DNA of 64,000 nt, taken from contig CM000207.1 in assembly GCA_000002445.1 (NCBI GenBank), positions 2,336,001-2,400,000 on the forward strand. The letters run 5' to 3'. Under the pieces are notes generated by a model that was given only the letters and a program-made list of their open reading frames with translations, ran no database searches and was not told the DNA's origin. Position 1 is the first letter of the stretch. Every line of letters begins with the position of its first letter. The position numbers and the translations under genes are program-made. The stretch is from Trypanosoma brucei. Taxonomy: Eukaryota. Below are positions 519 through 63,100 of the stretch, piece after piece.

Positions 519-3500
519 ATGCCCCCGTCCAAAGACTCGGCAACACCGCTGGACGCGGCAATTTTGTGCCACATTCGCACTCCATATTTAAGTGGTAGCG
601 GTCTCGTTGGAACCGTACAAACGCGGCTGAGCGCAACACTCGCAGATGTGCGACGGCTCCTCGAAAGTCTTGCGAGTCTCGCGCGCCAGGGTAATGATCG
701 CAACGTCGGTAATGCCATCGGGTCAAGTGAAGCCCCAGTCAACGTTTCAAAGGAGGAAATGCGTAAGATTATGTCGCATGCATTACATCCATTTGACTTG
801 AGTGCAGATTTCTCATTTGTGAGGGGCGGGTGCGGCGCCATGGTTCCACGGGAGCGTGAGAAAAGCACGCGGCTAGTGGATTTATTCCCACTATTACCAC
901 AGCTTTTTAGTGTAAATAAGAAGAATTATCATATCGGTTGGGCGATGGAGCCGCCCGCACCTCTAGTGAGAATTTTAGCGAGGTTGGAGGATATGGAAGT
1001 TTGCCGCAACGCCGTTGCCGTGCTGTTTGTGTCCATGCAAACACCGGACGAGATGTTGAAGGACCGACTGACGCTATACCAAAGCGCAGCCAATGTTGGG
1101 TTCTCTAGTAAATCCGCTCAGTTAAATAGTTTCAAGAAGTCTCTGAATCTTTGGAATTGCAACGTACGCGATTGTTTTGGGCGTACCGTTCTCCATGAGT
1201 CCGTCTACCACGGGAATAAGGAAGTAGTGGCACATTTGTTATCGCTACCATTCATACACACCAACGAGCAAGATGCACAGGGTCTGACGCCGCTGCACAT
1301 TGCAGTGAGGAAAGGTGATGAGCGTATTGTGTCACAGCTGTTGATGCGTGGTGTAGATGTACTCCTACAAGATGCAAGCGGGGATACGGCACTCCACACC
1401 GCCCTAAGACTTCGGGATAGTAGGCTGGTAGAGTTGCTCTGTCAGTGCTTGCGTGAGGCGGGCATTGGTGCAGAGAAGCTGAGTCAATATCGAAATAAAC
1501 GTGGCCTTTCACCTAGCGATGTCTTTAAACTCCGCTGGCCTACATTTTTTCAGTTGTGTGCGGTGGGCGACGTGCAGGCAATTCACACCTTGTATAATCA
1601 CTACCTATTCAAGTGCGATTTGGCACATGCTCCTGACAACCTGTTACATCAATCAGTAGTGCACGTGGCTGCCGCAGCCGGTCACGCTGATGTGGTAAGG
1701 TATTTGCTTGACGAGGTAGGGTTCGGACGAGCCAGGGCTGAATGCTTTATTAATAGCCGCCTGCAAACCCCACTGCATGTGGCAGCGGAGCGAGGTGAAT
1801 TTGCAACCGTGAAGTTCCTTTACGAGCGATATCCCAAATGGCTTGCTGCAAGAGATATTACTGGGGCGACGCCGTTAGTGGCAGTTCTCCGCAATCGAAG
1901 ACGGTGGGGGACTGCGATAGCAGAGTATTTCATTACCGTTGCATCGAGTGAAACCATTGCACCCAACACGTGCGATAATGGTGGCAATGGTGCTCTTCAT
2001 TTGCTGTGTGAGTTGGGTTTGTTTCACTTAGCAAGGTTGCTCGTTGAAAGTCATGGAGCGGACGTCAATCTAGCTCACACAGGAACAGTGAACACTCATC
2101 ACTTTCTGAGAGTGACGCGGCGGTCGAAGTCTCTAATGGAGCAAATGAAATGGAAATTGAAACATCAAAAGACGGGGAAACAGGCGAAGATGACGCCTAT
2201 CTTATGTGCCATTCGCGGAGGCCGTTGCGGTATAGATATCATAGAAATGTTGCTTTCACACGGTGCGGCAACCCGTGAGGATGAAATTGTTGAACTTCTG
2301 TTCTACTTGGTGTCAAACGAACACTACGAGGTAGCCGAGCGCGTCCTGGCAAGAGAAAATGTGAAGCCTCCTGGGCATAACGAGCTGCTATGCCGATTCT
2401 GCCGGGAAAAACATGTTGTTGGCATCAGCTGGTGCTCTAAACAGGGCTTCCGTCAACTGAACGTCATGCAGGAAAGCCATCACCCATTAGCTGTCAGTTC
2501 CGCTTTAGGAGATGCCGCTGCCGTAGCTATTCTTCTCGAGCACGGGGCAAACGCGAACATCGGTAAGAGCGTGTTGCACACACCCTTGGCACTTGCCATT
2601 AACGGGGGACACGACGATGTTGTTAGGTGTCTTGTACGGGCAGGGGCCTGTCTTCTATCGGCAGATGGCTCATGGAGTGCACTGCGCGCTGCTGTGAAGC
2701 GAGGGGAGGAGTTCATAATGGCTGGATTGTTGGCCGAGCCGTCCCTCCCTCCATCGGAAGTAGTGCATGCGATGGTGTTCGCGTTGCAGGATGCACGTGG
2801 AAGAGGCGTTGAGATCCGCGAGCGCCTCTGTGTACGTCTTGCTCGCGCACTGAACTTAGCTGAATGCGGCGGAGTGCACCCAACGGAGTTATTACACCTT
2901 GCAGCGAGCCGATCCTGCTTCGCAGTGGTACGGGTGCTGGTGGACAAGCTGCTGGCTCTTCCACGAGAGGAGTTGGAGAATATTCTGAAAGATGCTCCAG
3001 CGGCACCTTCACTCGCTTATGCGCTCATCGAGCCGAAGGCAGTTCCTTTGCCAAAGGGTGTGCCTAGTCGACTGTACGCACTTCACCCCTCACCAGCTCC
3101 CTTCAAGCGATTAATAACGTTGCGCACTTGGCAAGAAGGGTTGCACCACCGCCTGCATCTGCGGGATGCGTTTAGCTACTGTGCCAGTGCCCGAGAGGAG
3201 TCATTGCTCGAAACTCTGCTATTTGACGTCGGGCTGAAGCCCTGGGAAGGGCCTGATTTCCGGGGTTGGAATGCCGCTGACTATGCCGTTGCAAGTGGAC
3301 TATACAATTCTGTGCGTATTTTACTCGTCTCAGGGTTGGCCCCCCTCCGACACCACCACGTGCGTAGCGGTACGTGGCTGGGAATTCTTTGTCGCTCCAT
3401 GGTCACCCCCGCTGCACGACCTAGTGAAACTAATTTGCTGTACTTTACTTTGAAGCGTCTGGTGTGCGCGGGAGAGACCTTGCTGATTCGCCACATCCTC

Positions 3501-6500
3501 TGGGATGTCTGCCGGCGATGCGATGTCTCGGATATGAGGGACGCGAGTGTGTGGCTGACGGATGTTCTTTTGTGCTGCGCTCGCAGCCGAAGTCTGGAGA
3601 TTTTGCACATACTTACAAGGGAATTTCGCGTCACGTGGGGCAGGAAGTTCTTTCCTACAGCGGAACCACTGTTGATGGCAGTATTAAATAGTGACGCGGA
3701 GATGGCATTGTTTCTAATGACACACGGCGCTGTCCCCACGGCATTTGGCCCCATTCCCAAAATGCACGACAACGTTAAAGCTAGTTTCCTGCGGGAGGAG
3801 AGACGTGCTGTTTCCCCCTTATGGCTAGCTGCCCGCCTTGGGGAGACCGCCATCCTGCAGCAGTTGCTACAGTCAACGGATCTTCTGTGCCATGAAGCAA
3901 CGCTGGACAATTCCACCCAGTGTGGTGACATACTCCAGGCACTTATCGATGGAGCGACGCGGCGGGTCACGAAGGAGCGCGACGCGGGCATGGCTCGAAC
4001 TATCTTTATGCTGAAGCGTGCTGGATATTTGGCCCTAACTCCCGACGTTGTGAGGTGCGCCGCCAGAAAGGGGTTGGTACAAGTGGTGAATGCCCTCGTG
4101 GATTGTTACGGCCCCGATCCGTTTGTGGAAGACCTCAAGTGTGGAGGCTTGTGTGCCATACATTTTATGGTCGCCAACCCGGAGCTTTGTGGAACGCTGC
4201 GTTCGTTGCTTGTTGCGGGACGCAGCACAGCAACTGAAACTGTGGGGGGAAGTGTGTCCCTCGCCTCCGCTATGCTTGCGACACCATTCAGGGTTAACCC
4301 TGTCGATTACGCTCTGAGACATGGTTGCGCAGAGGGGGCTCTGCTTCTTCTTTGTTTAGGGCTTTACGGCAGCGGAACTGTGTTTGCAAAGCGAGCCCGC
4401 ACGTTGTCAGTGGTCATACGCCTCGCAGTGCAAAGGAGGTGCACAACGGGGTGGAGCGGCTACACAGCTTTGCACGCAGCGATTGAGATGCAGTGCCACA
4501 GTCTGGCGAAGACTATGGCTTGCGAAATGGCAGCGATTCATGGTCCCAACAGTGGCCCCTATGCAGAGATGACTATCAAAAATGATGACGCACCATCTCT
4601 TCACGCATTCATGGCGTTCCACTTGCGTGAAGCACACTTTGGAACGCTTCTTTCGTCCGGCGTGCCTCCAGTAGTGGATATCTCATCTCCCTGCGATATC
4701 CCGTACATTGTATGGAGCCCGCATGCGTCTGAGGGGCGCTTCAGGGAAGCCGTGCGGGAATCTGCCACGAGAGAGGGGCTGGAGCAGCCGCTAGATTTAA
4801 TGAAAGAGAGTCTCCGCGTTGAGGTGCGCCAGCACATGTTGTCCTACAACGAGAACATCTTTTTTCGGAGCCGATCGTTCGCAGTGACGGCACTGACACC
4901 GATGGCGTGCGCTGTTGCCGCGGGAAAGTTGTCGTGGGTGCAGTTATTTTCCAGTTGCGGAGTTTCCTTGACGAACGACAGTTCCATTATTGCCGCAAAG
5001 TATTCTGCAGTTTCGACGCAGGGACGAATTAAGGCTCCGCCGGTGTACAAACTCGTCGATATGAGAGACTCTAGGAAACGGAAGGCACCGAAATCGGTGA
5101 GAAGGAAGCACGTTTGCTCCAAGGACACTGGCGCGTGGCTGCTTACTGCCTACGTCCACAATCGTTGCCACATCTCCCCCATCATGCTTAGCATGGCAAT
5201 TGTCGTTGAGTGTGTTCGGTCGGGTGCCGTGGAACAGAGACTGCTTCAGCAGCTACAAATAATTCGCTATCTTCTTGGATCCGATGAATGTCCACTACGA
5301 GAGGAGGTGAATCTGTTGGCCATCGTAGCTGCAGAACTGCAACTGTGGGGGTTGCTTGAGGACACTGTGGTTACATTGGAGCGGTGCCGTGCCGTATTTG
5401 ACCCCATTAGCGAAGGGGATATACCGCCCTTTATGCACAATGTCGTTGGGAGTGCCCACCACGTAATGCATAAGGTGGCAAGAGTTGCACCACGGGAAAT
5501 AATTTTACTGGTTGCAAGAAACTCATCTTTCGTTCACGTCGAAGAGTTGTGCGACGCGAAGGGAAGGACGGCGCTTTACCACGCCCTGTATCACCCGACT
5601 CCGGCTGCTGTTGACACATTGCTGTCTCTTAATGTTTCGGTGAGTAAGCGCTGCTGCTCTGGGACGGGGCGTACTCCATTAATGGTTGCAAGTAAACTTG
5701 GGAAGCTCGGTCATGCGGAGAGGCTAATGCGAAAAGAGGTGTTGGACCTTGAGGACAACTACGGCAACACAGCCCTCCTGCTAGCTGCGGAAGGGGGTCA
5801 CAAACAAGTAGTGGAGTATCTTCTCGCGCAGGGAAGCTCGCCATCAACCAAAAATGCTAAAGGGATGACGGCGGTGATGGTGGCGGCGCTCGCGGGTCAT
5901 GATAGCCTCGCTGTTCCGATGGTTGAGAGATTCTCCGGCATATCGGACTTGTTTACTCCGCACACCACCATACTGCACTGCGCCGCTGTGGGAGGCGCCT
6001 GGGGTGTTGCAACCACAGTTGTGAGTTGTCTGGCGCAGGCAGACCCCTTAGCAGTGGACCACTTTGGATACACAGCCCTATTTCTCGCCCATGCATTTGG
6101 AAATGCGCGTGTCCTGCGCACGCTGCTTGGCGCTGTTCTCCACAAGGGTATTACCGTTCCCTCTTCTTTCGTCCGGGAGCGTCAGATAATCTCACGCTCA
6201 TCGGAACTTGTGCCGCGAGGGTGGCTTAAGGGAACCTTGTATTTGGCTGAAGCGGTGCTAGGCAACGGGCGGAAGGGCTCATCATCATCATTATCATCAT
6301 CACACTATGGTCCCATGCGCTCCAGTGAGACATTGTACGGTCATCGCACGTCCATCCGTCGTAATGATGTCCCTTTGCTTCTTTGGTGTGTACGGAACAA
6401 CAACACACTCGGTGTCCGTGTCTTGGGGGAGATCAATGTTGGTGATAATTGCTACGCTCTTCATGAGGCCGCCAGAAGTGGAAATGTGGAAATGGTAAAA

Positions 6501-9500
6501 CTGCTGCTGAAATTGGAGGTGAGCAGCCCTGATGTGTTAAATGAGTCGGGTATGCTTCCATTTGAGGTTGCCGCAGTGCATAAACATGTGGAATGTGCCT
6601 CTCTCATATTATTGCACACCAAGCTGGATCCTGTGCGGTTACGAGTGCACATCGATCACGGTGATGATCCGGACACCACAGCTAATAGTACAGACAGTAA
6701 CACCCATAACCCCATGCAACTTCTTGCATCTTCTGAGAATGCTGAGGTTTTTGCTGATGTGGTTGATTCAGTGCAACGCATGAGCGGTGACACGTGGCCT
6801 TCAGTGGCGCAGCAGCTGTTTGATACCCTTTCCACTCCAGGTCCTGATGGCATGACGGCGTTAGAGTTGCAGTTGGCTTTGGGAAGAGCTGCGGGGGCAT
6901 TACGGTTGGTGAAAATACTTCAGCGCCTGTCCCTAGATGTAGCAGGGAACTGTGCCTTTGCCGTGTCGAGCAGCATACTTCATCACCTTACAAATGTGTC
7001 CCCTGCAGTGCGTGTGCTTCTCCATGATATGTTTGGCCTCACGGATGTAGCCAAAGGCTACGGAATGAGGCGTCGCCGCTTCGGACGGCTGTCGTTCGCC
7101 GATGTTAGACTGATCGGCATCAGTGCGCTGCAGAGTGACGCTTATTGCGCGGCAGCAACCTCATCCATCTTCACTTTTGGGAACGAGGTCGGTGCAACAT
7201 CTTCACTATTAGAGCGACTTCCCTTTGAGGTTCGTTTTGTGCCCCGTCCGTTCGAACGACGGTCTGCAGCCGAGCGAGCAAAGCTCATCCGATGGCTTGG
7301 ATCCTCCCTTATACTGTCGAGCTACAAACAATTAAGGACATGCGCCCAGTTTGACGCGGTGGAGGTGGAGATCGTGTCCCACCCAGCAGAAGAGTTCGCC
7401 GAACTTGTGGGTGATCATTTACACCATTCAATTTACGTCGACGGCGACTGTCAGCTTGTGGTCCCGGATTTGAATATCATCCTTGGGTTTGCTACCCGAC
7501 GCGAGAAACAGCGGTTGCTGGACGAGGTAGAGCACCTCTGCGGTGTACTTACTGATACTATGCAGTCACTTCCCCATCCTGCGCTTAGTAAAGGTGAGGT
7601 CAAGGTGGACTGGCGCAACTGCAACATTGACGACGTGGAACAGGAGGCTATCGAGTGCCTCATTGAAAATGGGCTAAAGAAGCTGCGGGTGTTCTTGGAG
7701 GGAAATCTTAGGGACTGTCTTTGTGGTGTGAATATGACAGATATATTATCTGTGAAGTGTACTGCAGAACCCGTTACTGAGAAGGTACACATTACCTTTC
7801 AGTACACACGAGAAGCACTGAAAAAGTTTAAGCCATCCGCTACCGAGTTGGGAAGTACCGTTGATGGACTGTTGTGCGTTGTGCGATTTAGTGACGCGGG
7901 CATGGGTGGTTTGGATTTTGTTATGCGCTCGGTCCTGTATCCGGCTACCTTGTCCGACGTGAACTTGGTTGGCGTCAGCCGCATCCGTGATGCATGGGTT
8001 GCTGATGTGTCTCGCCGTGTAGGTCAGCGAATGGGTGGAGAGACAATAGCATTTAAACTCCAGCTCGAAGGAAGTGAATTGCATGAGCTTCCACTGCACC
8101 TTCTCAAGCGTATGATGGCTGATGTGACTGATGCCATAGCTATGCTGATGTCGCGGCCCAGTGCAAAAAAGCACCGATTTCTTGTTTCCCATATCGTAGG
8201 TGAGTCTTTGGCTTCTTCCCTGCGCGCTGTGTTTGTTCTCTTCTCCACGAGCCGGCAACCAACCGCGAGGCGGGCACAGGGTAATCTACTTATTTGCTTC
8301 AATGCCACAATGACGCCTACCATGTCAGATATCTACCAGTGTCTCCGCCGAAGTGCGTTAAAGGATGAGGCCGAGCGCTTAAAGGGGATGCTCATGTCTA
8401 TTGTCTCAACCATGGGTTTGCAACTCAGCGTTGCTCTTCCTGCAGTTCCACTTCTCATGGATGTGTTGGGTTCCTTAAGACATCAAGATACGGAGAATGT
8501 TGTGTCGTTTCTTTCAGTTCTCTGTCACAACGACGGCTCACTCGTGTTAAAGCCCCTCATCGAGGGTGTTTCCATTGGCTGGAAAACGGAGCTTGGGCGG
8601 GTTGTCCGGCGACACGTAAGGCAAATAAGCGTTGCATTGGAGGTGAACGGGGGGGCGTCCTGTGAATTGAAGGAAAACGGAACCTTTGTCTACAAGTGCC
8701 CGCTCAACTGTGCACATGCGGGGTCATACGCTGCGCATTCAAAGGGATTATTATCCGCACAACAGATTGCATCGTTGCTGCTTATTCAAATTGACGCGAT
8801 GGACCCCACAATGCGCAGCCTCATCAGCACAACAAAAGCCATGGCCTGCTGGTCCCGAGCTTGTGGCACCTGCACGCGCCTGTTAGATGCGGGGTCTCAA
8901 CGCTGTTCAATTGTAATTAAGAGGCGTAATATACTTGACCAACCAGTTGGGCAAAGTGCAAGTGATGCCTTCAGCTTCCGCGGCGGGTGGAGCGGGGTCA
9001 AGGTTAAGGGTAGTACAGGTGTGGTGCGATTCACAGCCCCAACCAAAGCTGGCTATTACCTCCAGCATATTTTGCTCAATGATCAGCCACTGTTTAACTC
9101 TCCACTTCGCATCAGGGTTCGACCGCTGGGCCCGCATCTGCCAAACACAAAAATCCTTTCCACCTTCAACGCTGTCGTGGTGAAACGTCCGTTTCATATT
9201 CAACTGTTGTTGCATGACCGGTACCTTAACCGCGTGGCTCACATTTGTCCGCTTCGAATTGAAGCGGTAGACGGCGGCGCGGTGCATGTTGCCGGTTGGA
9301 AGCGGCTTCATGTAGACACGGTAGAGGTGGAAGTAGTTGTAAAGGAAATTTGTGAACAGTGTTCACTGCGGTTTCGGTTATTGGCCCCGGGAGGTGCCGG
9401 AAACTTCGTAGTGGACTATACGGTTGCGTCTGTTACCCCTGACACGTACCGCCAACAGTTTGGACCGGTGAAAAGCCGACTCATGGCAAAAGGGCTGCAA

Positions 9501-9665
9501 GGGAAAACGGGAAGACCGCAGCGGCCGCCACCACCGCCCGTTGGAATAATGAGCAAAAGGCAAAAAAATGAGTCACGGACCCCACGATATATCTTCCCCC
9601 CGCTTAGGGCGGTTGCAAAAGGGGAGAAAAATACAAAAAGAAAAAGCAAGCCGCCAAGCACGTAA
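519..9665 (+). CDS. Giant ankyrin-repeat-containing protein (3048 aa), hypothetical
   Basis: Uninterrupted 9.1-kb ORF. There are multiple ankyrin-repeat signatures, for example GRTVLHESVYHGNKEVVAHLL, DAQGLTPLHIAVRKGDERIVSQLL, DASGDTALHTAL, NGGNGALHLLCELG, and a C-terminal cluster DNYGNTALLLAAEGGHKQVVEYLLAQGSSPSTKNAKGMTAVMVAALAGHDS. The C-terminus is proline/basic rich. No other recognisable catalytic motif. Confidence 0.85.
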   Translation: MPPSKDSATPLDAAILCHIRTPYLSGSGLVGTVQTRLSATLADVRRLLESLASLARQGNDRNVGNAIGSSEAPVNVSKEEMRKIMSHALHPFDLSADFSFVRGGCGAMVPREREKSTRLVDLFPLLPQLFSVNKKNYHIGWAMEPPAPLVRILARLEDMEVCRNAVAVLFVSMQTPDEMLKDRLTLYQSAANVGFSSKSAQLNSFKKSLNLWNCNVRDCFGRTVLHESVYHGNKEVVAHLLSLPFIHTNEQDAQGLTPLHIAVRKGDERIVSQLLMRGVDVLLQDASGDTALHTALRLRDSRLVELLCQCLREAGIGAEKLSQYRNKRGLSPSDVFKLRWPTFFQLCAVGDVQAIHTLYNHYLFKCDLAHAPDNLLHQSVVHVAAAAGHADVVRYLLDEVGFGRARAECFINSRLQTPLHVAAERGEFATVKFLYERYPKWLAARDITGATPLVAVLRNRRRWGTAIAEYFITVASSETIAPNTCDNGGNGALHLLCELGLFHLARLLVESHGADVNLAHTGTVNTHHFLRVTRRSKSLMEQMKWKLKHQKTGKQAKMTPILCAIRGGRCGIDIIEMLLSHGAATREDEIVELLFYLVSNEHYEVAERVLARENVKPPGHNELLCRFCREKHVVGISWCSKQGFRQLNVMQESHHPLAVSSALGDAAAVAILLEHGANANIGKSVLHTPLALAINGGHDDVVRCLVRAGACLLSADGSWSALRAAVKRGEEFIMAGLLAEPSLPPSEVVHAMVFALQDARGRGVEIRERLCVRLARALNLAECGGVHPTELLHLAASRSCFAVVRVLVDKLLALPREELENILKDAPAAPSLAYALIEPKAVPLPKGVPSRLYALHPSPAPFKRLITLRTWQEGLHHRLHLRDAFSYCASAREESLLETLLFDVGLKPWEGPDFRGWNAADYAVASGLYNSVRILLVSGLAPLRHHHVRSGTWLGILCRSMVTPAARPSETNLLYFTLKRLVCAGETLLIRHILWDVCRRCDVSDMRDASVWLTDVLLCCARSRSLEILHILTREFRVTWGRKFFPTAEPLLMAVLNSDAEMALFLMTHGAVPTAFGPIPKMHDNVKASFLREERRAVSPLWLAARLGETAILQQLLQSTDLLCHEATLDNSTQCGDILQALIDGATRRVTKERDAGMARTIFMLKRAGYLALTPDVVRCAARKGLVQVVNALVDCYGPDPFVEDLKCGGLCAIHFMVANPELCGTLRSLLVAGRSTATETVGGSVSLASAMLATPFRVNPVDYALRHGCAEGALLLLCLGLYGSGTVFAKRARTLSVVIRLAVQRRCTTGWSGYTALHAAIEMQCHSLAKTMACEMAAIHGPNSGPYAEMTIKNDDAPSLHAFMAFHLREAHFGTLLSSGVPPVVDISSPCDIPYIVWSPHASEGRFREAVRESATREGLEQPLDLMKESLRVEVRQHMLSYNENIFFRSRSFAVTALTPMACAVAAGKLSWVQLFSSCGVSLTNDSSIIAAKYSAVSTQGRIKAPPVYKLVDMRDSRKRKAPKSVRRKHVCSKDTGAWLLTAYVHNRCHISPIMLSMAIVVECVRSGAVEQRLLQQLQIIRYLLGSDECPLREEVNLLAIVAAELQLWGLLEDTVVTLERCRAVFDPISEGDIPPFMHNVVGSAHHVMHKVARVAPREIILLVARNSSFVHVEELCDAKGRTALYHALYHPTPAAVDTLLSLNVSVSKRCCSGTGRTPLMVASKLGKLGHAERLMRKEVLDLEDNYGNTALLLAAEGGHKQVVEYLLAQGSSPSTKNAKGMTAVMVAALAGHDSLAVPMVERFSGISDLFTPHTTILHCAAVGGAWGVATTVVSCLAQADPLAVDHFGYTALFLAHAFGNARVLRTLLGAVLHKGITVPSSFVRERQIISRSSELVPRGWLKGTLYLAEAVLGNGRKGSSSSLSSSHYGPMRSSETLYGHRTSIRRNDVPLLLWCVRNNNTLGVRVLGEINVGDNCYALHEAARSGNVEMVKLLLKLEVSSPDVLNESGMLPFEVAAVHKHVECASLILLHTKLDPVRLRVHIDHGDDPDTTANSTDSNTHNPMQLLASSENAEVFADVVDSVQRMSGDTWPSVAQQLFDTLSTPGPDGMTALELQLALGRAAGALRLVKILQRLSLDVAGNCAFAVSSSILHHLTNVSPAVRVLLHDMFGLTDVAKGYGMRRRRFGRLSFADVRLIGISALQSDAYCAAATSSIFTFGNEVGATSSLLERLPFEVRFVPRPFERRSAAERAKLIRWLGSSLILSSYKQLRTCAQFDAVEVEIVSHPAEEFAELVGDHLHHSIYVDGDCQLVVPDLNIILGFATRREKQRLLDEVEHLCGVLTDTMQSLPHPALSKGEVKVDWRNCNIDDVEQEAIECLIENGLKKLRVFLEGNLRDCLCGVNMTDILSVKCTAEPVTEKVHITFQYTREALKKFKPSATELGSTVDGLLCVVRFSDAGMGGLDFVMRSVLYPATLSDVNLVGVSRIRDAWVADVSRRVGQRMGGETIAFKLQLEGSELHELPLHLLKRMMADVTDAIAMLMSRPSAKKHRFLVSHIVGESLASSLRAVFVLFSTSRQPTARRAQGNLLICFNATMTPTMSDIYQCLRRSALKDEAERLKGMLMSIVSTMGLQLSVALPAVPLLMDVLGSLRHQDTENVVSFLSVLCHNDGSLVLKPLIEGVSIGWKTELGRVVRRHVRQISVALEVNGGASCELKENGTFVYKCPLNCAHAGSYAAHSKGLLSAQQIASLLLIQIDAMDPTMRSLISTTKAMACWSRACGTCTRLLDAGSQRCSIVIKRRNILDQPVGQSASDAFSFRGGWSGVKVKGSTGVVRFTAPTKAGYYLQHILLNDQPLFNSPLRIRVRPLGPHLPNTKILSTFNAVVVKRPFHIQLLLHDRYLNRVAHICPLRIEAVDGGAVHVAGWKRLHVDTVEVEVVVKEICEQCSLRFRLLAPGGAGNFVVDYTVASVTPDTYRQQFGPVKSRLMAKGLQGKTGRPQRPPPPPVGIMSKRQKNESRTPRYIFPPLRAVAKGEKNTKRKSKPPST

Positions 9666-11196: not shown

Positions 11197-12278
11197 AGTG
11201 TAGCGGGCGCATGGCTGAAGAAATGGGCACGAAAACGCACAAGTGAGCGAGTGATCGGATGGTTGATGTTGGCGGGGACCCGAAATCGGAGAAAACTTTC
11301 GCTTCCCTTTTCCTCCACTTCCACACAAGCAATTGCCTCCATTACACATAAAATCGCACTCGCCTAATACGTATATATATATATATATATATATTTATTT
11401 ATATATTTATTTATTTATGTGTTGGTGTCTGCTTGTGTTTGTGTTTGTGTGTGTGTGTGTTCTTGTTGGAGGAGGGGAGGAAAAAGTGACACTGATTCCG
11501 TCCTCCCTTAATCGCTGTCGTGGACTTGCCGTTTCATCTTCTTTTTATCTGGCATCACTTTGTTTCTTTTTATTTTATTTTTGATTTCACGCTTACCACT
11601 GGCTTTGTCCTGTCGCTGTTTTCTTTTATTATTATCATTATTTCTCGCTCCGCGGCTCCCCCCTTTTTTCCCGATTTCACTCCGCCCCACCTTCCCGCTT
11701 ACCTCCTCTCTGTCTTCATGAATGCATGCATTTATTTATTTCATTGATGGCATCACGCGCTCTTGTTTTTCTTTTTTCTTTTTGAAAAAATATTTCTTTG
11801 GTATTTGTGGTGCCATGCAAATGATATCAAATGAAAGCCTCTGCATATTCCCCTCTCCCCTAAAGGATCAGAAGGGAATTGGTGGTAATGGTGGTGATGG
11901 AGTGAAACGGGTTTGTAAAAAAAAAGAAAAAAAGAAAAAAAGAAAAAAAAAGAGGGGGTGCCGCGTGTTGCGCTTGTGTGAAGCCTTTACTAGCTCCTTT
12001 TGAATACGCAATTCTCTTTTTTCTTTTCTTTTTTTCTTTTCTTCTGTTTTGTGTTCTCTTCTTCATTTCCTTAAAATGGTCACTATGTGTCGTCCACAAG
12101 TTTCTGAAAAGAAACCTTTGGCTTACGAGTTTGAGGGACGACAGGAGGAAACTGTGGGGAGGAGGGACCTTCAACAGTTAAAAGTAGAGGAGAAAAAAGA
12201 AGAGAAAAAAAATAACAAGGAACCCAATTAAGTGGATAAAATTACCTACATATATACATACATACATACAAGTAAAAA

Positions 12279-12312
<34 letters not shown>

Positions 12313-12737
12313 ACCTTCCATATACGAGTACATATAGCAAACACTATATAAAAAGGTGGAAAGGTCCACATAGATAAAGAGAGAGAGAGAGTGGAGAGAA
12401 AAGGAAAGGAAAGGAAAACACACAAACCAAAACAGAAAAAAAAACGAGAAGAAAACGAGGGAGGAATTTAGGGTGTTGTGTACCACCGTGCTACAAAAAA
12501 AAAAAAAGAAAGAAAGAAAGAGAAAAAAAAAGAGAGGGCCATCTCGTTTTTTTTATATCCAGTTCTTTCGGAACACCCTTTTTTCCATTCCACTTAGTTT
12601 TCCCTCGACCATCATTTCAGTTTGTGGTTTGGGTTAGCTTTTCCGTGGTTTGGTCTGTGGAGGAAAATTGCACTGCTTTTTTTTTTTTGGGGGGGCCCTC
12701 CATTAGAGGGATAAGATAGCAGAGCACAGAGGAGACC

Positions 12738-14372
12738 ATGCCAGCAAAAAAGGCGACTGATGCGCCAGTGTATAATTTACCACATGAGCGGCAGGTGGAA
12801 CTCCTCTCTGAGGCGTTATTGAGGGAATATATGCATAAGCGTAAGTTCACTGATACTCTCCGTACATTTGACGAGGAAAACCCCCGTGGCCCCGACACCA
12901 TCTCTTCGCGTGCCCTCATGTCAGATCTCATGACACTAAAGTCTGAGACTCAAAAAGATATGAAGGCAGATGGAATTGAAACTATAATGGAAATGCTTTG
13001 CTGCCTCCGCGTGCAGCGACGGCTAGAGGTGGAGGATCTTAAACGACGGGCTGCAGCAGAGGTCCCACCAACCCCTGAAAAACTTAAGAAAAAGAAAAGC
13101 AAGAACCACGATGGGGGGAAAGGCAGTAAACGAAAAAAGGAAAAAAAGAGGGTGTTTGCAAAAGAGTTCGAGGAGGACTCACCATCAGACAAGGATTCGG
13201 TGAGCAAATATGGCGAAAAACACACAAAAAGGAGGTCGTCCGAAGGGCGTAGTGATAATAGCAGCAGTGATGAGGGAAGCAGTGGCGATGAGTCGACTAG
13301 TGAACAAAGCTCCACCAGTGTGGGGAAGGGTGGTGGGCCCAAGTCACAAATTGGCAAGAAGACGGCTCGTGCATTATTAGAAGTGCTGTGTGGTGCAGCC
13401 GGTGCTCTGCCGGTGTCGTTTCTGGGACAGGGGTTCGCTTTTGACGGCGACGTGGACTACGGCCTCATCCAACGGAAAAAAGGACCAGATGGGGTTGTGT
13501 CTGTTGTTCAAGCGTTTGTCTGCGCTTTCTTCTTCAAGGGACCGTTCATGGATGTGCGGCGGCATCAAAAACAGTGTCTTATTCGCTCTATCATGACTGT
13601 TCTCTCCAGTGTGCAATCACAGGCACGTCTCATTTGCCTTGTGGATGGCCCCATTAGTGCGGATAGTGTGGAAACTGACTTGGCAAGTATAAACACACGG
13701 CGGGACTTTGCCACGATGCAAGATGTGGAGAACGCCCTCCATGACTTCATAGACAGTTGGATGCAGCCGAACGGTTCAGGAGTGTTTTGCTTCCTTCTTT
13801 CTGCGCTGCTCTCTCACGGAGTGAAGGCCGTAACATCTGCTCTCGCCTCCAATACCACGTCATCAGCGGTCGCAGCTGAGCAACATTTGATTACTGCAGA
13901 CGGTCGCTGTTCTGTAGTGTTAACAGAGCTCCTTATGCCAAAGGAGTCTGCCAGCACCGCGGGGGATGATGACTTTGTGCTGGGCAATCTCGCTCTCGGA
14001 ATGGGAGCCGCTGGTGCCACTTGCGGGTTCGTCACAAGAAACCCCGATGGGAATGTCACAATGACTAATGGTAACCCACGCTGTCCCGTCTGGATTGTTC
14101 ATCACGAGGGGCGTTATGTCGTACTCTTCTTGAAGCGGGATAACCGCCGCCAGCTGGAGCAGCGTCGCACCACTGGTGCAACTATGTCCACAGACGTGTT
14201 CTTCTACGAGCCGAGCGTGTCAGACCGGGGTGACACATTCGTCACTATTACCGTCAACAGCGAAGATGAAAATAGTAGTAGTGATAACTTCTTCTTGGGC
14301 CGAGCCATCCGTAGCATACCATTGTGGCCCAGTTGCGCAATACACTGGAATGGAGCGGAACCGCCTTTTTGA
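12738..14372 (+). CDS. LisH-motif protein with C-terminal MINDY-3/4-like (FAM188/DUF4205) deubiquitinase-fold domain; catalytic Cys apparently replaced by Asp
   Basis: N-terminus ELLSEALLREYMHKRKFTDTLRTFDEE resembles a LisH motif. A K/S/E-rich acidic-basic linker follows. The C-terminal half carries blocks I recall from MINDY-3 (FAM188A): QGFAFDG...GLIQRKKGPDGVVSVVQAFVCAFFF (human: QGFVFSE...EQFEGGPCAVIAPVQAFLL), DSWMQPNGSGVFCFLLSALLSHG, and PVWIVHHEGRYVVLFLKRD (human: PIWIVGSETHLTVFFAKD). Confidence 0.6.
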   Translation: MPAKKATDAPVYNLPHERQVELLSEALLREYMHKRKFTDTLRTFDEENPRGPDTISSRALMSDLMTLKSETQKDMKADGIETIMEMLCCLRVQRRLEVEDLKRRAAAEVPPTPEKLKKKKSKNHDGGKGSKRKKEKKRVFAKEFEEDSPSDKDSVSKYGEKHTKRRSSEGRSDNSSSDEGSSGDESTSEQSSTSVGKGGGPKSQIGKKTARALLEVLCGAAGALPVSFLGQGFAFDGDVDYGLIQRKKGPDGVVSVVQAFVCAFFFKGPFMDVRRHQKQCLIRSIMTVLSSVQSQARLICLVDGPISADSVETDLASINTRRDFATMQDVENALHDFIDSWMQPNGSGVFCFLLSALLSHGVKAVTSALASNTTSSAVAAEQHLITADGRCSVVLTELLMPKESASTAGDDDFVLGNLALGMGAAGATCGFVTRNPDGNVTMTNGNPRCPVWIVHHEGRYVVLFLKRDNRRQLEQRRTTGATMSTDVFFYEPSVSDRGDTFVTITVNSEDENSSSDNFFLGRAIRSIPLWPSCAIHWNGAEPPF

Positions 14373-24458: not shown

Positions 24459-26111
24459 ATGAAAGTTCCAATAGGCATCTTGCGTTATGCTGAGGAAATA
24501 GCGGCTAGTGATGCTATTAATGGTGTTGCCATTTGTGTAGATATGGATGACATTTTTCGTCGAGCCGTGGCTTGCAGCCGGAAGAATGTTAAAAGTGCTG
24601 GTCCCTTCGATTCGTCTGCCATTCCGCTTCCGCCTGCGTTGGGTCAATGCGTTGGGCGTGTCATCACTAAACTTTATGATGCCGTTAAATGGCTCTTGGA
24701 TATGAAAGCCAAATGTGTAGCGCTTGTCTTTGGTGTAACGGACTCACTGGAGGAAGTGGCACTTCTTATGCAAGTCTACAAACATGTGATGGATCTCGTA
24801 GCGAGTCTTTCTGAACGTTGCCAAGTGTATGTGAACCGCAGCGGCACAGCGCTAATTGGCATTCAGGCTCTACTCTCCAATTGTCCGAAGAATAGTGTAA
24901 ATAACAAAAAAAAGCGCGGCCTACTTCCACCGTGGAAGCGTTCACTGGTGTGCACATCCGATCCGTTAGGTGGGTTTATGGGGTTTAATTGCATCGTGAA
25001 CTTGCTTTCGCTTTGTCACGGGAAGGAGCCTTCTATAGTTAAAGCATCAAAACTCGTCGGAAGGTGTAAATTGGATGATGCGGCGTCGCTACCGGTTTTT
25101 GCTCTCATTGCCAGTAAAAAGGTTTCAACCACAGACACAACACCATACCATATGAAAAAAGAAGATAGGAAGGAAATTGCTCTACCTATTAACTGCCGGA
25201 AGGGTTTGCTCTCCATTGAATTACTTAAAGATGTTGGATTACTGCCATCAGAGGAGTACCGAGAGGAGGAAACCCGTCATTTGTTGTTTCAACTTAAGGC
25301 CGCGCTTGCTGATTTGCGTGCTGAATGCATCAACCCGCCAGAGCTCTCCACAATGACAAAACACCAATATTTGCTCCCGATATTGTTCCATCGCATGCAT
25401 CACAGCACGGTGCGGTTGGGGAAACGGCACATGCACGATCGGTTCTCACGAGCACGTTCCATCATTTTTCACACCCTTCTCACGGGCAGACTTGCACGAA
25501 TTATTTATGAAGATAGTTCTTGTGCTGATAGTAATCGTAATGATGCCGCTGCAGCAGAATCACAAATTATCCGATGCCGCGTGGAGGACCCGAACCACAT
25601 TCAGTACATCAAAAGCCCATCCACCAGGGTTTTGAAAGATGTGCTGAAGTTGAAAGTCGGTGACAGCGAGGAAATGACGTCGGCCATTACGGCCAAAGAA
25701 CTTGAAGATATACGACGCATTCCAGAGCATCTTCAGTTATATGCTGCAGCTCTTAAAATACTCTACCGCACCGGGATTTTGACAGAGATGGTTTGTCGGG
25801 CGGTATGCCGCGCCATAGTTTCGGTAACCCATGAGAAATACGATATTTACAATGATGATATGCACCATAAGAATAACAGGAATGATGAAAGCATTGTCGA
25901 TGAGGAAAAGAATAAACGACCATCACCACAGGAAATATATGACGGGCTTCAGGAGTTGCACGTGTGCTGGATATACGCCGCCCTCGCCAATGACATTTTG
26001 CATCCTTCTGAAATAAAACCAAACCTTTCACCCACGCCACTGGTGCGGTACACCGATGCGTCGAAGGAGGAGGAGGACTTGAAGTATCTCACATCTGTTC
26101 TCTTCGTCTGA
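24459..26111 (+). CDS. Hypothetical protein (550 aa), no recognisable domain
   Basis: Long clean ORF in the same orientation as its neighbours, with AT-rich/polyY upstream sequence. Composition is unlike the surrounding low-complexity DNA. No motif I can name. Confidence 0.6.
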   Translation: MKVPIGILRYAEEIAASDAINGVAICVDMDDIFRRAVACSRKNVKSAGPFDSSAIPLPPALGQCVGRVITKLYDAVKWLLDMKAKCVALVFGVTDSLEEVALLMQVYKHVMDLVASLSERCQVYVNRSGTALIGIQALLSNCPKNSVNNKKKRGLLPPWKRSLVCTSDPLGGFMGFNCIVNLLSLCHGKEPSIVKASKLVGRCKLDDAASLPVFALIASKKVSTTDTTPYHMKKEDRKEIALPINCRKGLLSIELLKDVGLLPSEEYREEETRHLLFQLKAALADLRAECINPPELSTMTKHQYLLPILFHRMHHSTVRLGKRHMHDRFSRARSIIFHTLLTGRLARIIYEDSSCADSNRNDAAAAESQIIRCRVEDPNHIQYIKSPSTRVLKDVLKLKVGDSEEMTSAITAKELEDIRRIPEHLQLYAAALKILYRTGILTEMVCRAVCRAIVSVTHEKYDIYNDDMHHKNNRNDESIVDEEKNKRPSPQEIYDGLQELHVCWIYAALANDILHPSEIKPNLSPTPLVRYTDASKEEEDLKYLTSVLFV

Positions 26112-57446: not shown

Positions 57447-58487
57447 ATGCACTCATGTTGGATTGGTTCGCTGTTACTACTAGTGGGACTTATGTTTTTT
57501 AGTATTGTTTGCCGAGCAAATGGAACGGAAGTGAAGCCGCTGGAAGAAAGTGCAGAGGATATTTGTGCGGCCATGAAGTCCCTTAATACCGTAAATAACA
57601 CTGTACAAAATATTATTACCACCATACGCAATCACAAGGCGAAATTGATACGCTATCTCCAGGATGTAGAGACGGCATTTGAAAGGACGAGTAGCGCAGC
57701 CGCTGCAGCGAAACAATACGGGGGAACCTTCCGAACTGCGTCGGTGGCATCAAAAATTGCGAATGACGCAATGTCCAACTCCACGCGGGCCATGTTGGAT
57801 GCTGAAACGAGTCACAACACGACTCTTATTATTGAGGCGGCGGCGAATATTGAAGCACAGAGCGCGAGAGACAACGCAACTGCCGCCGCTGTGGCACTTC
57901 AGGCGATATGGAAAACGACAGTTGGCACTGCCAGACTTCAAGCGAACCATACGGATTGTGTGTATACACCAGCTGATCAGATGTTGACGTCCCAGAAGCT
58001 GAATGAGCACAAAGAGAAGCTGGTGGTAACAGATAGCAAATATAATGATGAACACAAGGAGTTGAAGGAGCTTTGGGCGCGGAGTTATCTGAAGCTCTTC
58101 CTCCCGCTCGACCAGCTCCATATGTTATTGCAAAAGTTGGAATGGGATGTTGCCACAACGTCAGAGATGGAAACCACTGCAGAAAAGGCAGCTGATGCAG
58201 CAGTAGCGGCGCAAGAGGATGTTGAGAAGGCGGCAGAGTTGGCGGCGGAGAGTGCGACAGAATCTGTACGGGCAAAACGATACTCTGATCGTGTCGCAAG
58301 AGGGAATATGAAATTTAAAACCATCGCAGGATTTCATGAGGAACCTCTACCCGAGGTCGTCCCTCGTCCCGGGGCAAAGGCATCTGCCGCGTCCGATCCA
58401 TTGGAAAATGAAGACGGCGCTTTTTATGTGTCCAGGGGAATAATGCCGCTCAGTCAAGCTTTTTTCGTAATTGCGTTTACCATATAA
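57447..58487 (+). CDS. Distinct alanine-rich, N-glycosylation-site-rich predicted GPI-anchored surface protein (346 aa), not a member of the array consensus
   Basis: N-terminal signal peptide MHSCWIGSLLLLVGLMFFSIVCRANG. The body is alanine-rich and predicted helical (SSAAAAAKQYGG, AAANIEAQSARDNATAAAVALQAIW, AEKAADAAVAAQEDVEKAAELAAESATE). At least 7 N-x-S/T sequons. The short C-terminal hydrophobic tail (IMPLSQAFFVIAFTI) is typical of a GPI-attachment signal. It sits between the BARP array and the adenylate cyclase. Confidence 0.65.
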   Translation: MHSCWIGSLLLLVGLMFFSIVCRANGTEVKPLEESAEDICAAMKSLNTVNNTVQNIITTIRNHKAKLIRYLQDVETAFERTSSAAAAAKQYGGTFRTASVASKIANDAMSNSTRAMLDAETSHNTTLIIEAAANIEAQSARDNATAAAVALQAIWKTTVGTARLQANHTDCVYTPADQMLTSQKLNEHKEKLVVTDSKYNDEHKELKELWARSYLKLFLPLDQLHMLLQKLEWDVATTSEMETTAEKAADAAVAAQEDVEKAAELAAESATESVRAKRYSDRVARGNMKFKTIAGFHEEPLPEVVPRPGAKASAASDPLENEDGAFYVSRGIMPLSQAFFVIAFTI

Positions 58488-60156: not shown

Positions 60157-63100
60157 ATGAGTTGTTTAAGAAGCATCTCGCTGTCGGTACCTCCGCACGC
60201 CCTTTCGACGTTCAGCAGAACGGGAATGTTATATGTTATGTATGTCTTGCTTCTTCTCATGCCCTATCCGCTGCAAGTGCACGGCGCTCCAGCAAACATC
60301 AACGTTAAGGTTTTACTTTGTACCTGGAACACGCGTGTACCAAAAATTTTCACCACCGCAGTTAACGCTGGTTTCAATGCGTCAATGGAATCACGCAATT
60401 GGACCATAGCCGACAGGGTGAAGGTGCAGGTAGTTCAATCCAGTACGAGTCACAAAACCCCGGAAGAATTTATCAAAGACGAGTTGAGTAAGGAAACAGA
60501 CAAGAGTGGCATCACGATTGTGTTTGGCCCCGTAGGTGACGACACTACGCTGGATTCTATTTCTGAGTTGCAGAAGCACGAGGTGGTTGCGTTCGGTCCC
60601 ATGACTGGATCTGGAGAGGTTCGGCGGTGGGTTCGTGAGCTCTATTTTCTACGCCCAAGCCCAACAATCGAAACCATGGTGCTCATTCGACATGCATTGG
60701 GTCATCTAGGTGTATTGCGACTGGGTTTCATGTATCTGCAGGGCCATCATTATGGAGAGAAAGAGTATGAGGTGGCATTGCGGGTAATGGAAGAAATGGG
60801 CTACCAACTTTGCGGTGTCTTTGTTGTGTTAAATGTTAACGATAAACCCGCACCCGACAAGGAATTCAACGCAGTGTTTGAGCGTTTTGCAGCTACTAAG
60901 CCACAGGCTGTGCTTTTGTTTGGTGCTCCCAAATCCGACACGGGGAGGTTCCTGAGGAAGTTGGTGGCGGACCGACGCACCTCTGGGGCCTACGTCCTCG
61001 CTCCCTCTGGGGCGCAGGTGTTTCTGGAACTTATGTGGAAACGAGTTCTGCTTGACAGTCAAGTCTCCCCCTTCCCCGGGAAGCTGCTCATTGCTGGCAC
61101 CAACCCACTTGCGAAGAACGAACAGTACGTGGCCATAAAACGCTTTCAAGAGGTGATGCGAGAGTATCTGAAGACTCACACCAGCGAAACGGGCATCACG
61201 GACCCGAACTACTTCTTGAAACATGACACAGATGGTGAAATGATGGTGTACGGCTGGGCTGCTGGCGAGGTGCTGTCGCAGGCGCTAAGCGTCCCTGAGT
61301 GGCTCAAGGACAGGACAACATTCATGGACTCGCTGTATAATCAGCGCCGATACGTTATTGCTGACTTTGTAATTGGCGACTTCGGTGGTGATTGCGAAGG
61401 GGAAGCAGCCAAGCAGGGTGCCGTCTGTTATTGCAACCAAGGTGGAAATGTGGTGTACGTGAGAGAGGTTGAGGATGATTTCAGCATGCAAACGCCGAAA
61501 GATGGCACGGTGGGACTGGCCGCACTGCGCTGCAATGCTGACTCGGTAACGCTACATTCCCCATTGAATGGGCTTGTTATTTTCTTTGGTGACAACACAA
61601 TTGCCGTGAAAGCGACCGCGGCGTGGCTTGTTGGCGCCCTCCGCCACGATACCGGGTCACTAGAGTATTCAGGCCAACTCTTTCTGCACGCATTTGGCAC
61701 CACCACATCTGACTCTGCGAAGGCCCTGAAGGAAGAGAAGAAAAAACGAACTGTCACCGCCGTGTTCGGCATTGTGACGAAAGCGCTTATGAAAATGACC
61801 AACACGCTGTTCATTGACCCAATAACAATTGAACCCCAGTTGAACAAGTTCCGGAGGCATGTGATTCACCTCTCCCCAACGGTGGAGCAGCAAATCTACG
61901 TGCTAACACGCTACCTCTCCAACAACAGTGGTAAAGAGGCAAATGCCATTGTTTGCGCTGCAGAAGCGCATGGTATAATGAAGGTTATCCGAAAGTCCTT
62001 GGAAAAGTGGGGAGGTTCGCTGAATATCTCACTGGTGCGCAGGAGGGGTGCCGCGCTTACCGGCCACCTTCCCACCAGCGGGGCAGTGTTTGTTTTCGGT
62101 ATATCTGCCGCTGACGTTGATGTGATTGAGAGGCACCTCGCTGCGCATAGTGAACTTCGTGTGCTTGTCCTTTTCTCCGAGGTGGCATTGCTTTATGAGA
62201 AGTTTGTCACGGCCTTCAACGGCAGCGCCGCGGCCCCTCGCCTCGTGTTTGCCACCAACCTTCCACACTGGTATGACAATGAAACATCGTCACCAACAAT
62301 CCTGAAGTTTCACGCCACAGTGGAGAGCCGAGAAAAGTGGACGCCAATGACACTAATGGGCTTCGTTACCGGGACGCTGATGAGTCTGGCGCTCTTGCGC
62401 GTGGAACGGGTAAACATGAGCACGCTTGCAAACTTCTTCTTCGTTGAATCCTCCGTAAATGTCGACGACATGCGGTATGGCGTCTTTAGCGACTCGGAGT
62501 GTGGTTCGGGGGAAACCGGATATGGCGATATGTGCCGCACCAACTATGGGGCGACGCGCATTAGTGTGTGGTCCATGTCGCGTGTATTTAATGCTTCAAT
62601 CGAGCTGCTCGCCGAGCCCGTGACACCTTCCTTGAAGTTTTTATTGGAGTGGGACGGGCTTACCAGGGCTCAGCTGGTAGGAATCATTGTCGGTTCCACC
62701 CTCTTCGTGATGCTGCTTGCTGCGCTCGGTGTTTTTATGCACATCACCTTACGTGATGCCCGCGATAATGTGAGTGCACCTATGGACCCGACGGACCCCG
62801 TGACGCTCATCTTCACGGATATTGAAAACAGCACGTCGCAGTGGGCCTCACATCCCAATGTCATGGCCGATGCCGTTGCCGCGCATCACTCTCTGATACG
62901 GACACTAATTGGGAACTATGATTGCTACGAAGTGAAGACCATAGGTGACTCTTTCATGATTGCGAGCAAGAGTGCCACGGCGGCAGTGAGGCTTGCCCGC
63001 GATTTGCAGCGCTGCTTTCTAAACTACCGTTGGGGTACGGACAGCATCGACAACTTCTACCGTGCTGAGGAAAAACAAGTGGCTGAGTTGAACAGCAAGG

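What the first reader, a model, noticed from the sequence alone, without database searches (positions are those of the whole stretch)
12738..14372. MINDY-3/4-like deubiquitinase-fold protein with catalytic Cys replaced by Asp (possible pseudo-DUB) fused to a LisH motif
The C-terminal domain carries the blocks I recall from the FAM188/MINDY-3 family (QGF.F...G..Q...GGPC..I.PVQAF; W....GV..FL.S.LL..G; P.WIV..E.H..V.F). At the position of the catalytic cysteine nucleophile, though, it reads KGPDGVVSVVQAF, Asp instead of Cys. A candidate His (VWIVHHEGRYVVLFL) is retained. If the alignment holds, this is a catalytically dead K48-polyubiquitin-binding module, a ubiquitin reader rather than an eraser, attached to an N-terminal LisH dimerisation motif and a highly charged Ser/Lys/Glu linker.
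Basis: partly seen in the sequence, partly recalled or inferred. Interest (0 to 1): 0.5.

Follow-up and report, generated by a model that had tools for sequence, protein, structure and literature searches.

The report
Catalytically dead trypanosome MINDY-4 deubiquitinase homologue
This Trypanosoma brucei gene encodes the parasite's version of the ubiquitin-trimming enzyme MINDY-4, but both residues needed for cutting are replaced across the trypanosomatid group, so it is almost certainly a conserved non-enzymatic relative that databases still label a probable hydrolase.

The parts
12738..14372 (+). Complete ORF, 544 aa plus stop. Identical to T. b. brucei TREU927 Q38CW8 / XP_827682.1. Inferred gene ID Tb927.9.15450.
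   Evidence: neighbours identified as Tb927.9.15460 and .15470
12765..13061 (+). N-terminal helical module (aa ~10-108) = Pfam PF26038 Dimer_MINDY4_N. LisH-type dimerisation fold; LisH core helices at aa 16-47. The most conserved part of the protein.
13068..13328 (+). Disordered Ser/Lys/Glu/Gly-rich linker (aa ~111-197), with a basic cluster (KLKKKKSKN...KRKKEKKR) followed by acidic Ser-rich tracts. Poorly conserved in sequence.
   Evidence: pLDDT<50; composition and 11-33% identity
13416..14354 (+). MINDY-3/4 catalytic-type domain (Pfam aa 227-539; folded domain about aa 200-544). Papain-like fold, no EF-hand insertion.
13470..13472 (+). Gln245, equivalent to the oxyanion-hole Gln45 of human MINDY3. 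Retained.
   Evidence: Q in 164 of 167 representatives
13488..13490 (+). Asp251 (GAT) at the catalytic Cys position (human MINDY3 C51). N-terminal residue of helix 251-265.
13995..13997 (+). Leu420, the probable equivalent of human MINDY3 Leu245 (S1-site contact with the ubiquitin Ile44 patch). The adjacent Gly that is invariant in active members is Met here.
   Evidence: phmmer instead aligns A419. The neighbouring region 405-419 is low-confidence.
14112..14114 (+). Arg459 (CGT) at the catalytic His position (human MINDY3 H287). First residue of strand 459-464.
14130..14177 (+). Motif conserved only in the Cys-less clade, (L/M)x(K/R)DxRxxFxQ(K/R)xxLG (aa 465-480), directly after the former His strand.

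Best explanation
The gene encodes the trypanosome orthologue of MINDY-4: an N-terminal LisH-type dimerisation domain, a disordered linker and a MINDY-3/4 papain-like domain. It has lost deubiquitinase chemistry. Shown: the nucleophile Cys is Asp251 and the general-base His is Arg459. Several polar motifs conserved in active members are also replaced (SDMD, GYCSQE..N, SNV.DG, ESH, YYDQ), while the hydrophobic/Gly/Pro/Trp core, the Cys-loop scaffold and the oxyanion Gln are kept. Shown: the loss is shared by one clade holding all trypanosomatid-type homologues found. The Cys column went first and the His column decayed independently afterwards. Shown: the protein stays under selection, with an intact ORF in every species, a highly conserved N-terminal module and 26 positions newly conserved in the Cys-less clade. 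Inferred: it works non-catalytically as a dimeric scaffold or adaptor. The LisH domain would pair two copies (or a copy with a paralogue that carries only that domain), and the dead protease fold would serve as a protein-binding platform, as in other pseudo-DUBs. Inferred: the carboxylate and guanidinium of D/E251 and R459 replace the thiolate-imidazolium pair with a salt bridge that fills the former active site. Acid-plus-base pairs arose in three lineages, whereas Ser/Gly lineages keep His.
Against: No activity or binding data exist for this protein. Some proteins once called pseudo-DUBs were later shown to be active (USP53/54, abstract; PAN2/USP52). The oxyanion Gln and the whole Cys-loop scaffold (G249, P250, G252, A/S255, V257, Q258, A259) are still conserved, and that is not obviously required for a pure scaffold. 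The covariation rests on only about three independent lineages. I could not search the T. brucei proteome for partners or for a second, active PF13898 gene.
Confidence: 0.7

Rival explanations
1. Ubiquitin reader. The dead domain still binds ubiquitin or K48 chains at the S1 site and, as a LisH dimer, reads chains without cutting them.
For: The equivalent of S1 contact Leu245 (L420) is L/I/M in all eight Trypanosoma sequences. The oxyanion Gln and Cys-loop scaffold are kept. Dimerisation could add avidity.
Against: In MINDY3, polyubiquitin binding comes from the EF-hand insertion (Kd ~6 uM for K48-Ub3), which is absent here. No UBD is detected by Pfam. Several polar motifs conserved in active members are replaced, and the Gly next to L420, invariant in active members, is Met. 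L420 is deleted in Leishmaniinae, so any such function would not be shared across the clade. The region 405-419 is predicted disordered.
Confidence: 0.22
2. Still an active hydrolase using relocated catalytic residues, for example the clade-specific conserved C429 or C218 together with H456.
For: C218, C429 and H456 are each conserved in about 89% of the Cys-less clade but not in active members. Relocated catalytic residues and re-activated 'pseudo-DUBs' are documented.
Against: In active members, positions 218 and 429 are hydrophobic (V, or I/L/V/M), so they look like buried core positions. No alignment puts a Cys at the helix N-terminus. H456 also occurs in 5 of 9 Cys/His-intact sister sequences, so it predates the loss. 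The other conserved polar motifs are also gone.
Confidence: 0.05
3. A decaying gene, or a sequencing or annotation artefact.
For: The catalytic-like domain evolves faster than the N-terminus (44% against 73% identity to T. cruzi). Eight of the 10 differences in T. b. gambiense lie in that domain.
Against: Full-length ORFs are intact across Trypanosoma and Leishmaniinae and in unnamed relatives. The sequence is identical in TREU927 and differs by one residue in T. equiperdum. GAT is two substitutions from a Cys codon. There are 26 clade-specific conserved positions, and the fold is predicted confidently.
Confidence: 0.02

Closest known systems
MINDY-4 (FAM188B) deubiquitinases of other eukaryotes
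   Same: Same two-domain architecture (Pfam Dimer_MINDY4_N + MINDY-3_4_CD, no EF-hand). Full-length profile alignment of the catalytic-type domain (E=1.4e-45). Oxyanion Gln and Cys-loop scaffold conserved. UniRef already names the protein 'Probable ubiquitin carboxyl-terminal hydrolase MINDY-4'.
   Different: Cys->Asp and His->Arg at the catalytic dyad. About half of the family-invariant positions are lost, and 26 new clade-specific conserved positions are gained. The Pfam score is less than half that of Cys-bearing sister sequences.
Human MINDY-3 (FAM188A; PDB 9RMD)
   Same: Same catalytic-domain family. Direct residue mapping: Q45/C51/H287 correspond to Q245/D251/R459, and Leu245 to about L420.
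   Different: MINDY-3 has no LisH N-terminal domain and carries a ubiquitin-binding EF-hand insertion (302-376) that is absent here. MINDY-3 is an active K48-specific DUB.
Known pseudo-DUBs: yeast YGL082W (MINDY family, PDB 6K6L), OTULINL/FAM105A, the MPN- proteins Abraxas/KIAA0157, PAN2/USP52. From memory and not verified here: human MINDY-4B, which UniProt labels 'inactive'.
   Different: YGL082W keeps its catalytic residues yet is inactive, whereas this protein has lost them. Here the loss is orthologous across a whole parasite clade and not a paralogue sitting beside an active copy (no active copy was found, though the search was not exhaustive).
LisH dimerisation domains (FOP, TBL1, LIS1, SSBP2, RanBP10, SMU1)
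   Different: The T. brucei segment gets no significant hit to Pfam LisH models. It belongs to its own family (PF26038), with additional helices at aa 58-108.

Membership tests
MINDY-3/4 catalytic-domain family (Pfam PF13898) | Significant full-length match to the family profile | tested here: met
   83.7 bits against gathering cutoff 27, aa 227-539 on profile positions 15-344 of 344. hhalign Prob 100, E=1.4e-45 against active-only members.
MINDY-3/4 catalytic-domain family (Pfam PF13898) | Papain-like fold with the nucleophile position at a helix N-terminus and the base position on a beta-strand | tested here: met
MINDY-3/4 active deubiquitinases | Catalytic Cys (C51 of human MINDY3) | tested here: not met
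   Asp251 in four independent alignments.
MINDY-3/4 active deubiquitinases | Catalytic His (H287 of human MINDY3) | tested here: not met
   Arg459.
MINDY-3/4 active deubiquitinases | Oxyanion-hole Gln (Q45) | tested here: met
   Gln245.
MINDY-3/4 active deubiquitinases | K48-selective polyubiquitin cleavage | not testable with these tools
   Needs a DUB assay.
MINDY-4 subfamily | N-terminal Dimer_MINDY4_N domain (PF26038) followed by the MINDY-3_4_CD domain, with no EF-hand insertion | tested here: met
   PF26038 is annotated on the identical protein P0001 and on all homologues. My own HMM of the module hits more than 60 non-kinetoplastid family members. Only 32 residues separate R459 from E491, against 99 between H287 and N386 in MINDY3. 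PF26038 is not in the local Pfam copy, so this rests on the precomputed annotation.
LisH-motif dimerisation domains | Sequence match to Pfam LisH-clan models | tested here: inconclusive
   The T. brucei segment has no hit. Of 20 homologous segments, 7 hit FOP_dimer (best E 6.2e-5) and 6 hit ARMC9_LisH, with weaker hits to LisH_PAC1, LisH_2 and LisH. A profile search of the PDB found nothing.
LisH-motif dimerisation domains | LisH fold | tested here: met
LisH-motif dimerisation domains | Forms dimers | not testable with these tools
   Needs SEC-MALS or AUC, or a multimer prediction.
Pseudo-deubiquitinases | DUB fold lacking canonical catalytic residues, yet conserved under selection | tested here: met
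Pseudo-deubiquitinases | No isopeptidase activity | not testable with these tools
   Needs biochemistry.
Ubiquitin-binding 'reader' modules | Recognisable ubiquitin-binding element (MIU as in MINDY-1/2, EF-hand as in MINDY-3) or a conserved S1 surface | tested here: inconclusive
   No UBD by Pfam and no EF-hand insertion. The S1 Leu equivalent L420 is kept in Trypanosoma, but neighbouring invariant residues and several polar motifs are lost.

The most novel reading that the evidence does not exclude
After losing catalysis, the trypanosomatid MINDY-4 lineage acquired a new function on the old active-site face. The Asp/Glu-Arg pair and the clade-specific motif (aa 465-480, plus F264-F266, K/R283 and Q293-P294) would form a new binding site. 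The LisH-dimerised protein would then act as a non-cleaving receptor for ubiquitin or a UBL, or as an allosteric partner of an active DUB. If no other PF13898 gene exists in these genomes, trypanosomatids would have dispensed with MINDY-3/4-type deubiquitination altogether.
Probability: 0.2. Interest if true: 0.6.

Novelty: new member of a known kind. Interest (0 to 1): 0.38.

Why it matters
It corrects a database label: UniRef calls this protein a probable MINDY-4 hydrolase, and NCBI lists it as hypothetical or DUF4205. It adds a MINDY-3/4-type pseudo-DUB that is conserved across a parasite clade and that the published Leishmania DUB inventory did not cover (that inventory was limited to families C12, C19 and C65). 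It also shows an ordered decay of a cysteine-protease active site: Cys lost once, His lost several times, and acid-base pairs appearing in three lineages. Practically, the protein should not be counted as a druggable cysteine DUB in trypanosomes. Inhibitor or activity-probe screens would be expected to miss it. A D251C/R459H revertant would be a clean test of how much else has been lost.

Tried and rejected
(1) Foldseek of the full-length model against the PDB found nothing significant. The MINDY3 entry 9RMD appears to be absent from that library, and MINDY-1/2 are too distant. (3) The word-indexed profile search with the catalytic-domain alignment returned only 5 hits. The exhaustive representative search replaced it. 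(4) A PDB profile search with the N-terminal alignment found nothing. (5) My first attempt at column mapping on the hmmalign output was wrong because insert characters were mishandled. It was redone. (6) I tried to name the organisms of the Cys/His-intact sister clade and of the Ser/Gly+His group through encoding contigs and a further homologue search. All are unnamed SRA or metagenome assemblies, so the point of Cys loss cannot be placed taxonomically. It lies 11 residues into the helix, is Trypanosoma-specific (Ala in Leishmaniinae), and no alignment places it at the Cys column. (8) The Walden et al. 2018 pseudo-DUB review was not available, so the statement that human MINDY-4B is annotated as inactive rests on memory. 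(9) Literature searches for this protein (DUF4205, Q38CW8, XP_827682, Tb927.9.15450) found nothing on it. (10) A cilia link for MINDY4/4B was checked and not substantiated.

Full report
THE OBSERVATION

The ORF at 12738..14372 (+) is real and encodes 544 aa. Its protein is identical to T. brucei brucei TREU927 Q38CW8 / XP_827682.1, differs by one residue from the T. equiperdum copy and by ten from T. b. gambiense.

All large ORFs in the window lie on the + strand, as expected for a trypanosomatid polycistronic unit. The two genes downstream are a P-type cation ATPase and a kinesin. These are the published TbENA (Tb927.9.15460; PMC7600311) and TbKifX2A (Tb927.9.15470). The focal gene is therefore Tb927.9.15450 by numbering, which is an inference. 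That ID, the accessions and 'DUF4205' bring up no paper about this protein.

FAMILY AND CATALYTIC RESIDUES

Pfam gives a clear MINDY-3_4_CD hit: PF13898, E=1.6e-23, 83.7 bits against a cutoff of 27, covering aa 227-539.

Human MINDY3 supplies experimental anchors. C51A and H287A each abolish activity, Q45 is the essential oxyanion-hole residue, and N386 is dispensable (bioRxiv 10.1101/2025.07.16.665128, now EMBO Rep, PMC13354579).

phmmer against the MINDY3 crystal chain 9rmd_A (numbering +2) aligns GPDGVVSVVQAF to GGPCAVIAPVQAF and PVWIVHHEGRYVVLF to PIWIVGSETHLTVFF. So Q245 corresponds to Q45, D251 to C51 and R459 to H287.

Three further methods give the same mapping:
- MAFFT of 26 homologues.
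- hmmalign of 173 sequences.
- hhalign of a Trypanosoma-only profile against a profile built only from non-kinetoplastid Cys/His-bearing members (Prob 100, E=1.4e-45, 320 columns).

That criterion is not met, so the core observation stands.

The codons are GAT for D251 and CGT for R459. GAT is two substitutions from a Cys codon, so this is not a one-base artefact.

STRUCTURE

An AF2 model built on the kinetoplastid alignment has pLDDT mostly above 90 for aa ~200-544, a disordered linker at 111-197, and a helical N-terminus. D251 is the first residue of helix 251-265 and R459 the first residue of strand 459-464. These are the positions the dyad occupies in a papain fold.

HOW FAR THE LOSS GOES

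An exhaustive profile search found 2,222 family representatives, and the best 150 were retrieved. Of 167 sequences with both dyad columns aligned, 139 are scored Cys/His. One of those is a Leishmania sequence with the ambiguous GGCDG motif described below, which leaves 138 clear cases. Every exception belongs to the kinetoplastid-type group.

I took the 56 columns that are at least 85% conserved in the 138 Cys/His members and asked what Trypanosoma retains. It keeps 53%.
- Retained: core and scaffold residues (Q231, F233, F235, G242, Q245, G249, P250, G252, V257, Q258, A259, L281, G348, S355, L384, L398, G430, P447, P450, W452, F464, Y490, W530, W537, N538).
- Lost in T. brucei: G248, C251, D368, D370, Y390, Q393, E394, V396, N397, G402, N407, F409, G422, V442, G443, K445, S458, H459, D491, L493, Q496.

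The losses remove the SDMD, GYCSQE..N, SNV.DG, ESH and YYDQ motifs. That these motifs line the catalytic groove is my inference from their conservation; I could not inspect coordinates.

The Pfam score tells the same story: 83.7 bits here against 170.6 and 207.8 for two Cys-bearing sister sequences. So this is more than a point substitution.

EVOLUTIONARY PATTERN

A neighbour-joining tree on the profile columns gives one Cys-less clade containing:
- Trypanosoma: D/R in T. brucei and T. vivax, with D also at the nucleophile column of the truncated T. congolense and T. grayi sequences; E/R in T. theileri, T. melophagium, T. rangeli, T. cruzi and T. conorhini.
- A group of unnamed assemblies: S/H, G/H, and one D/K.
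- Leishmaniinae.

Its sister is a Cys/His-intact clade of nine unnamed environmental or SRA sequences. I could not name those organisms, so the loss cannot be dated taxonomically.

His survives in the Ser/Gly lineages and in one Leishmania. It is replaced where an acid occupies the Cys column: R in Trypanosoma, K in P0042, and R then S in Leishmaniinae. The simplest reading is that Cys was lost once and His decayed several times.

An acid-base pair arose in three lineages. I infer that this pair forms a salt bridge in place of the thiolate-imidazolium pair.

The Leishmaniinae read GGCDG. MAFFT aligns the D with the Trypanosoma D and puts the Cys at position -1. hmmalign instead puts the Cys at the nucleophile column with D as an insertion, since the Cys lies 6 residues after the oxyanion Gln, as in active enzymes. 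This is ambiguous, but most of those sequences lack the His.

T. cruzi has Glu. Leishmania has no Cys at the MAFFT-aligned position but has an adjacent one.

NOT A DECAYING GENE

Full-length ORFs persist in all lineages. Twenty-six positions are at least 85% conserved within the Cys-less clade but differ from the active consensus. They include F264-F266, K/R283, Q293-P294, C218, C429, H456, S518-F519, A523 and a new motif, (L/M)x(K/R)DxRxxFxQ(K/R)xxLG, at aa 465-480 directly after the former His strand. That indicates a changed constraint and not an absent one.

THE N-TERMINAL MODULE

Of 35 invariant columns in the 26-sequence alignment, 29 lie in aa 1-91. Identity to T. cruzi is 73% there, against 44% in the catalytic-type domain and 28% in the linker. 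None of the ten T. b. gambiense differences falls in it.

The precomputed annotations call it PF26038, Dimer_MINDY4_N. That model is not in the local Pfam copy, which explains the lack of a local hit. An HMM I built from it finds the module at the N-terminus of about 100 of the 173 sequences scanned, including more than 60 non-kinetoplastid Cys/His-intact proteins. The architecture is therefore ancestral to MINDY-4 and not a fusion.

IS IT A UBIQUITIN READER?

Against:
- In MINDY3, K48-chain binding is provided by the EF-hand insertion at 302-376, with a Kd of about 6 uM for K48-Ub3. Here only 32 residues separate R459 from E491, so there is no such insertion.
- Pfam detects no ubiquitin-binding domain.
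- Several polar motifs conserved in active members are gone.

For:
- The S1 contact Leu245, whose L245A mutation abolishes MINDY3 activity, maps to L420 by hmmalign and hhalign (A419 by phmmer). It is L, I or M in all eight Trypanosoma sequences.
- However, the adjacent Gly that is invariant in active members is Met, the segment 405-419 is predicted disordered, and the residue is deleted in Leishmaniinae.

I prefer a non-catalytic dimeric scaffold or adaptor role. That is the usual role of pseudo-DUBs (review PMC10919355). It also fits reports that human FAM188B/MINDY4 acts through binding USP7 and USP10 (abstracts only).

There is a caveat. Several proteins once labelled pseudo-DUBs were later shown to be active. 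A relocated active site, for example clade-specific C429 or C218 with H456, cannot be excluded. I give it about 0.05, because those Cys positions are hydrophobic core positions in active members.

COMPARISON AND NOVELTY

The protein belongs to the MINDY-3/4 domain family and has MINDY-4 architecture. It fails two defining features of an active MINDY deubiquitinase, the Cys and the His. It should be filed as a pseudo-DUB orthologue of MINDY-4 and not as a 'probable ubiquitin carboxyl-terminal hydrolase', which is its current UniRef name.

Pseudo-DUBs are a known class, about 13% of DUBs, and include a MINDY-family example, YGL082W. From memory and unverified here, human MINDY-4B is also annotated as inactive. 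This is therefore a new member of a known kind.

The Leishmania DUB inventory covered only families C12, C19 and C65, and I found no description of this case. Interest is moderate: a clean, clade-wide pseudoenzyme with an instructive decay pattern and a corrected annotation, but not a new principle.

Noticed in passing
window 31689-56269: Tandem array of 14 ORFs (254-326 aa) spaced about 1.8 kb apart. The three I scanned are GARP/BARP-family surface proteins (Pfam GARP, E down to 2.6e-72). This looks like the known BARP array of T. brucei chromosome 9. ORF lengths vary between copies (254, 255, 260, 261, 278, 290, 296, 326 aa).
   Followed up: partly
P0034 (L. donovani, 617 aa), P0195, P0196: Proteins that carry the Dimer_MINDY4_N (PF26038) module but no MINDY-3/4 domain. 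A LisH-type module shared between two protein families in the same organism raises the possibility of heterodimers with the pseudo-DUB.
   Followed up: no
Leishmaniinae homologues P0011, P0014-P0015, P0017-P0021, P0023, P0025, P0035: The motif reads GGCDG. The Cys sits 6 residues after the oxyanion Gln, as in active enzymes, and is followed by an extra Asp, so it is ambiguous whether the nucleophile Cys is lost or kept with an insertion. Most of these sequences lack the His (S or R), but Leishmania sp. Namibia (P0015) has His, as does the related P0013 (GCG + His).
   Followed up: partly
window 519-9665: A 3,048-aa ORF rich in ankyrin repeats (Ank_2, E=4.6e-79, 7 stretches), immediately upstream of the focal gene.
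   Followed up: partly
window 60157-63885: A 1,242-aa receptor-type adenylate cyclase (two periplasmic-binding-protein-like domains plus a cyclase catalytic domain), downstream of the BARP array.
   Followed up: partly
window 24459-26111 and 57447-58487: Two ORFs (550 aa and 346 aa) with no Pfam family above threshold. The 346-aa ORF directly follows the BARP array and has only a sub-threshold Clusterin match (18.8 bits against a cutoff of 23.6).
   Followed up: no
window 11333-12700: The intergenic region upstream of the focal gene is full of low-complexity runs ((TA)n, (GA)n/(GAAA)n, poly-A). It ends in a poly-T tract at about 12677-12689, followed by AG dinucleotides about 30-50 nt before the ATG. 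From general knowledge of trypanosomatid gene structure, that is the arrangement expected for a trans-splicing acceptor.
   Followed up: no
window 12738-14372, compared with P0174-P0177: T. b. gambiense and three Logan-assembly variants differ from the window protein at 4-10 positions (123, 201, 234, 243, 292, 360, 373, 394, 400, 517). All are in the linker or the catalytic-like domain, and none is in the LisH module.
   Followed up: yes
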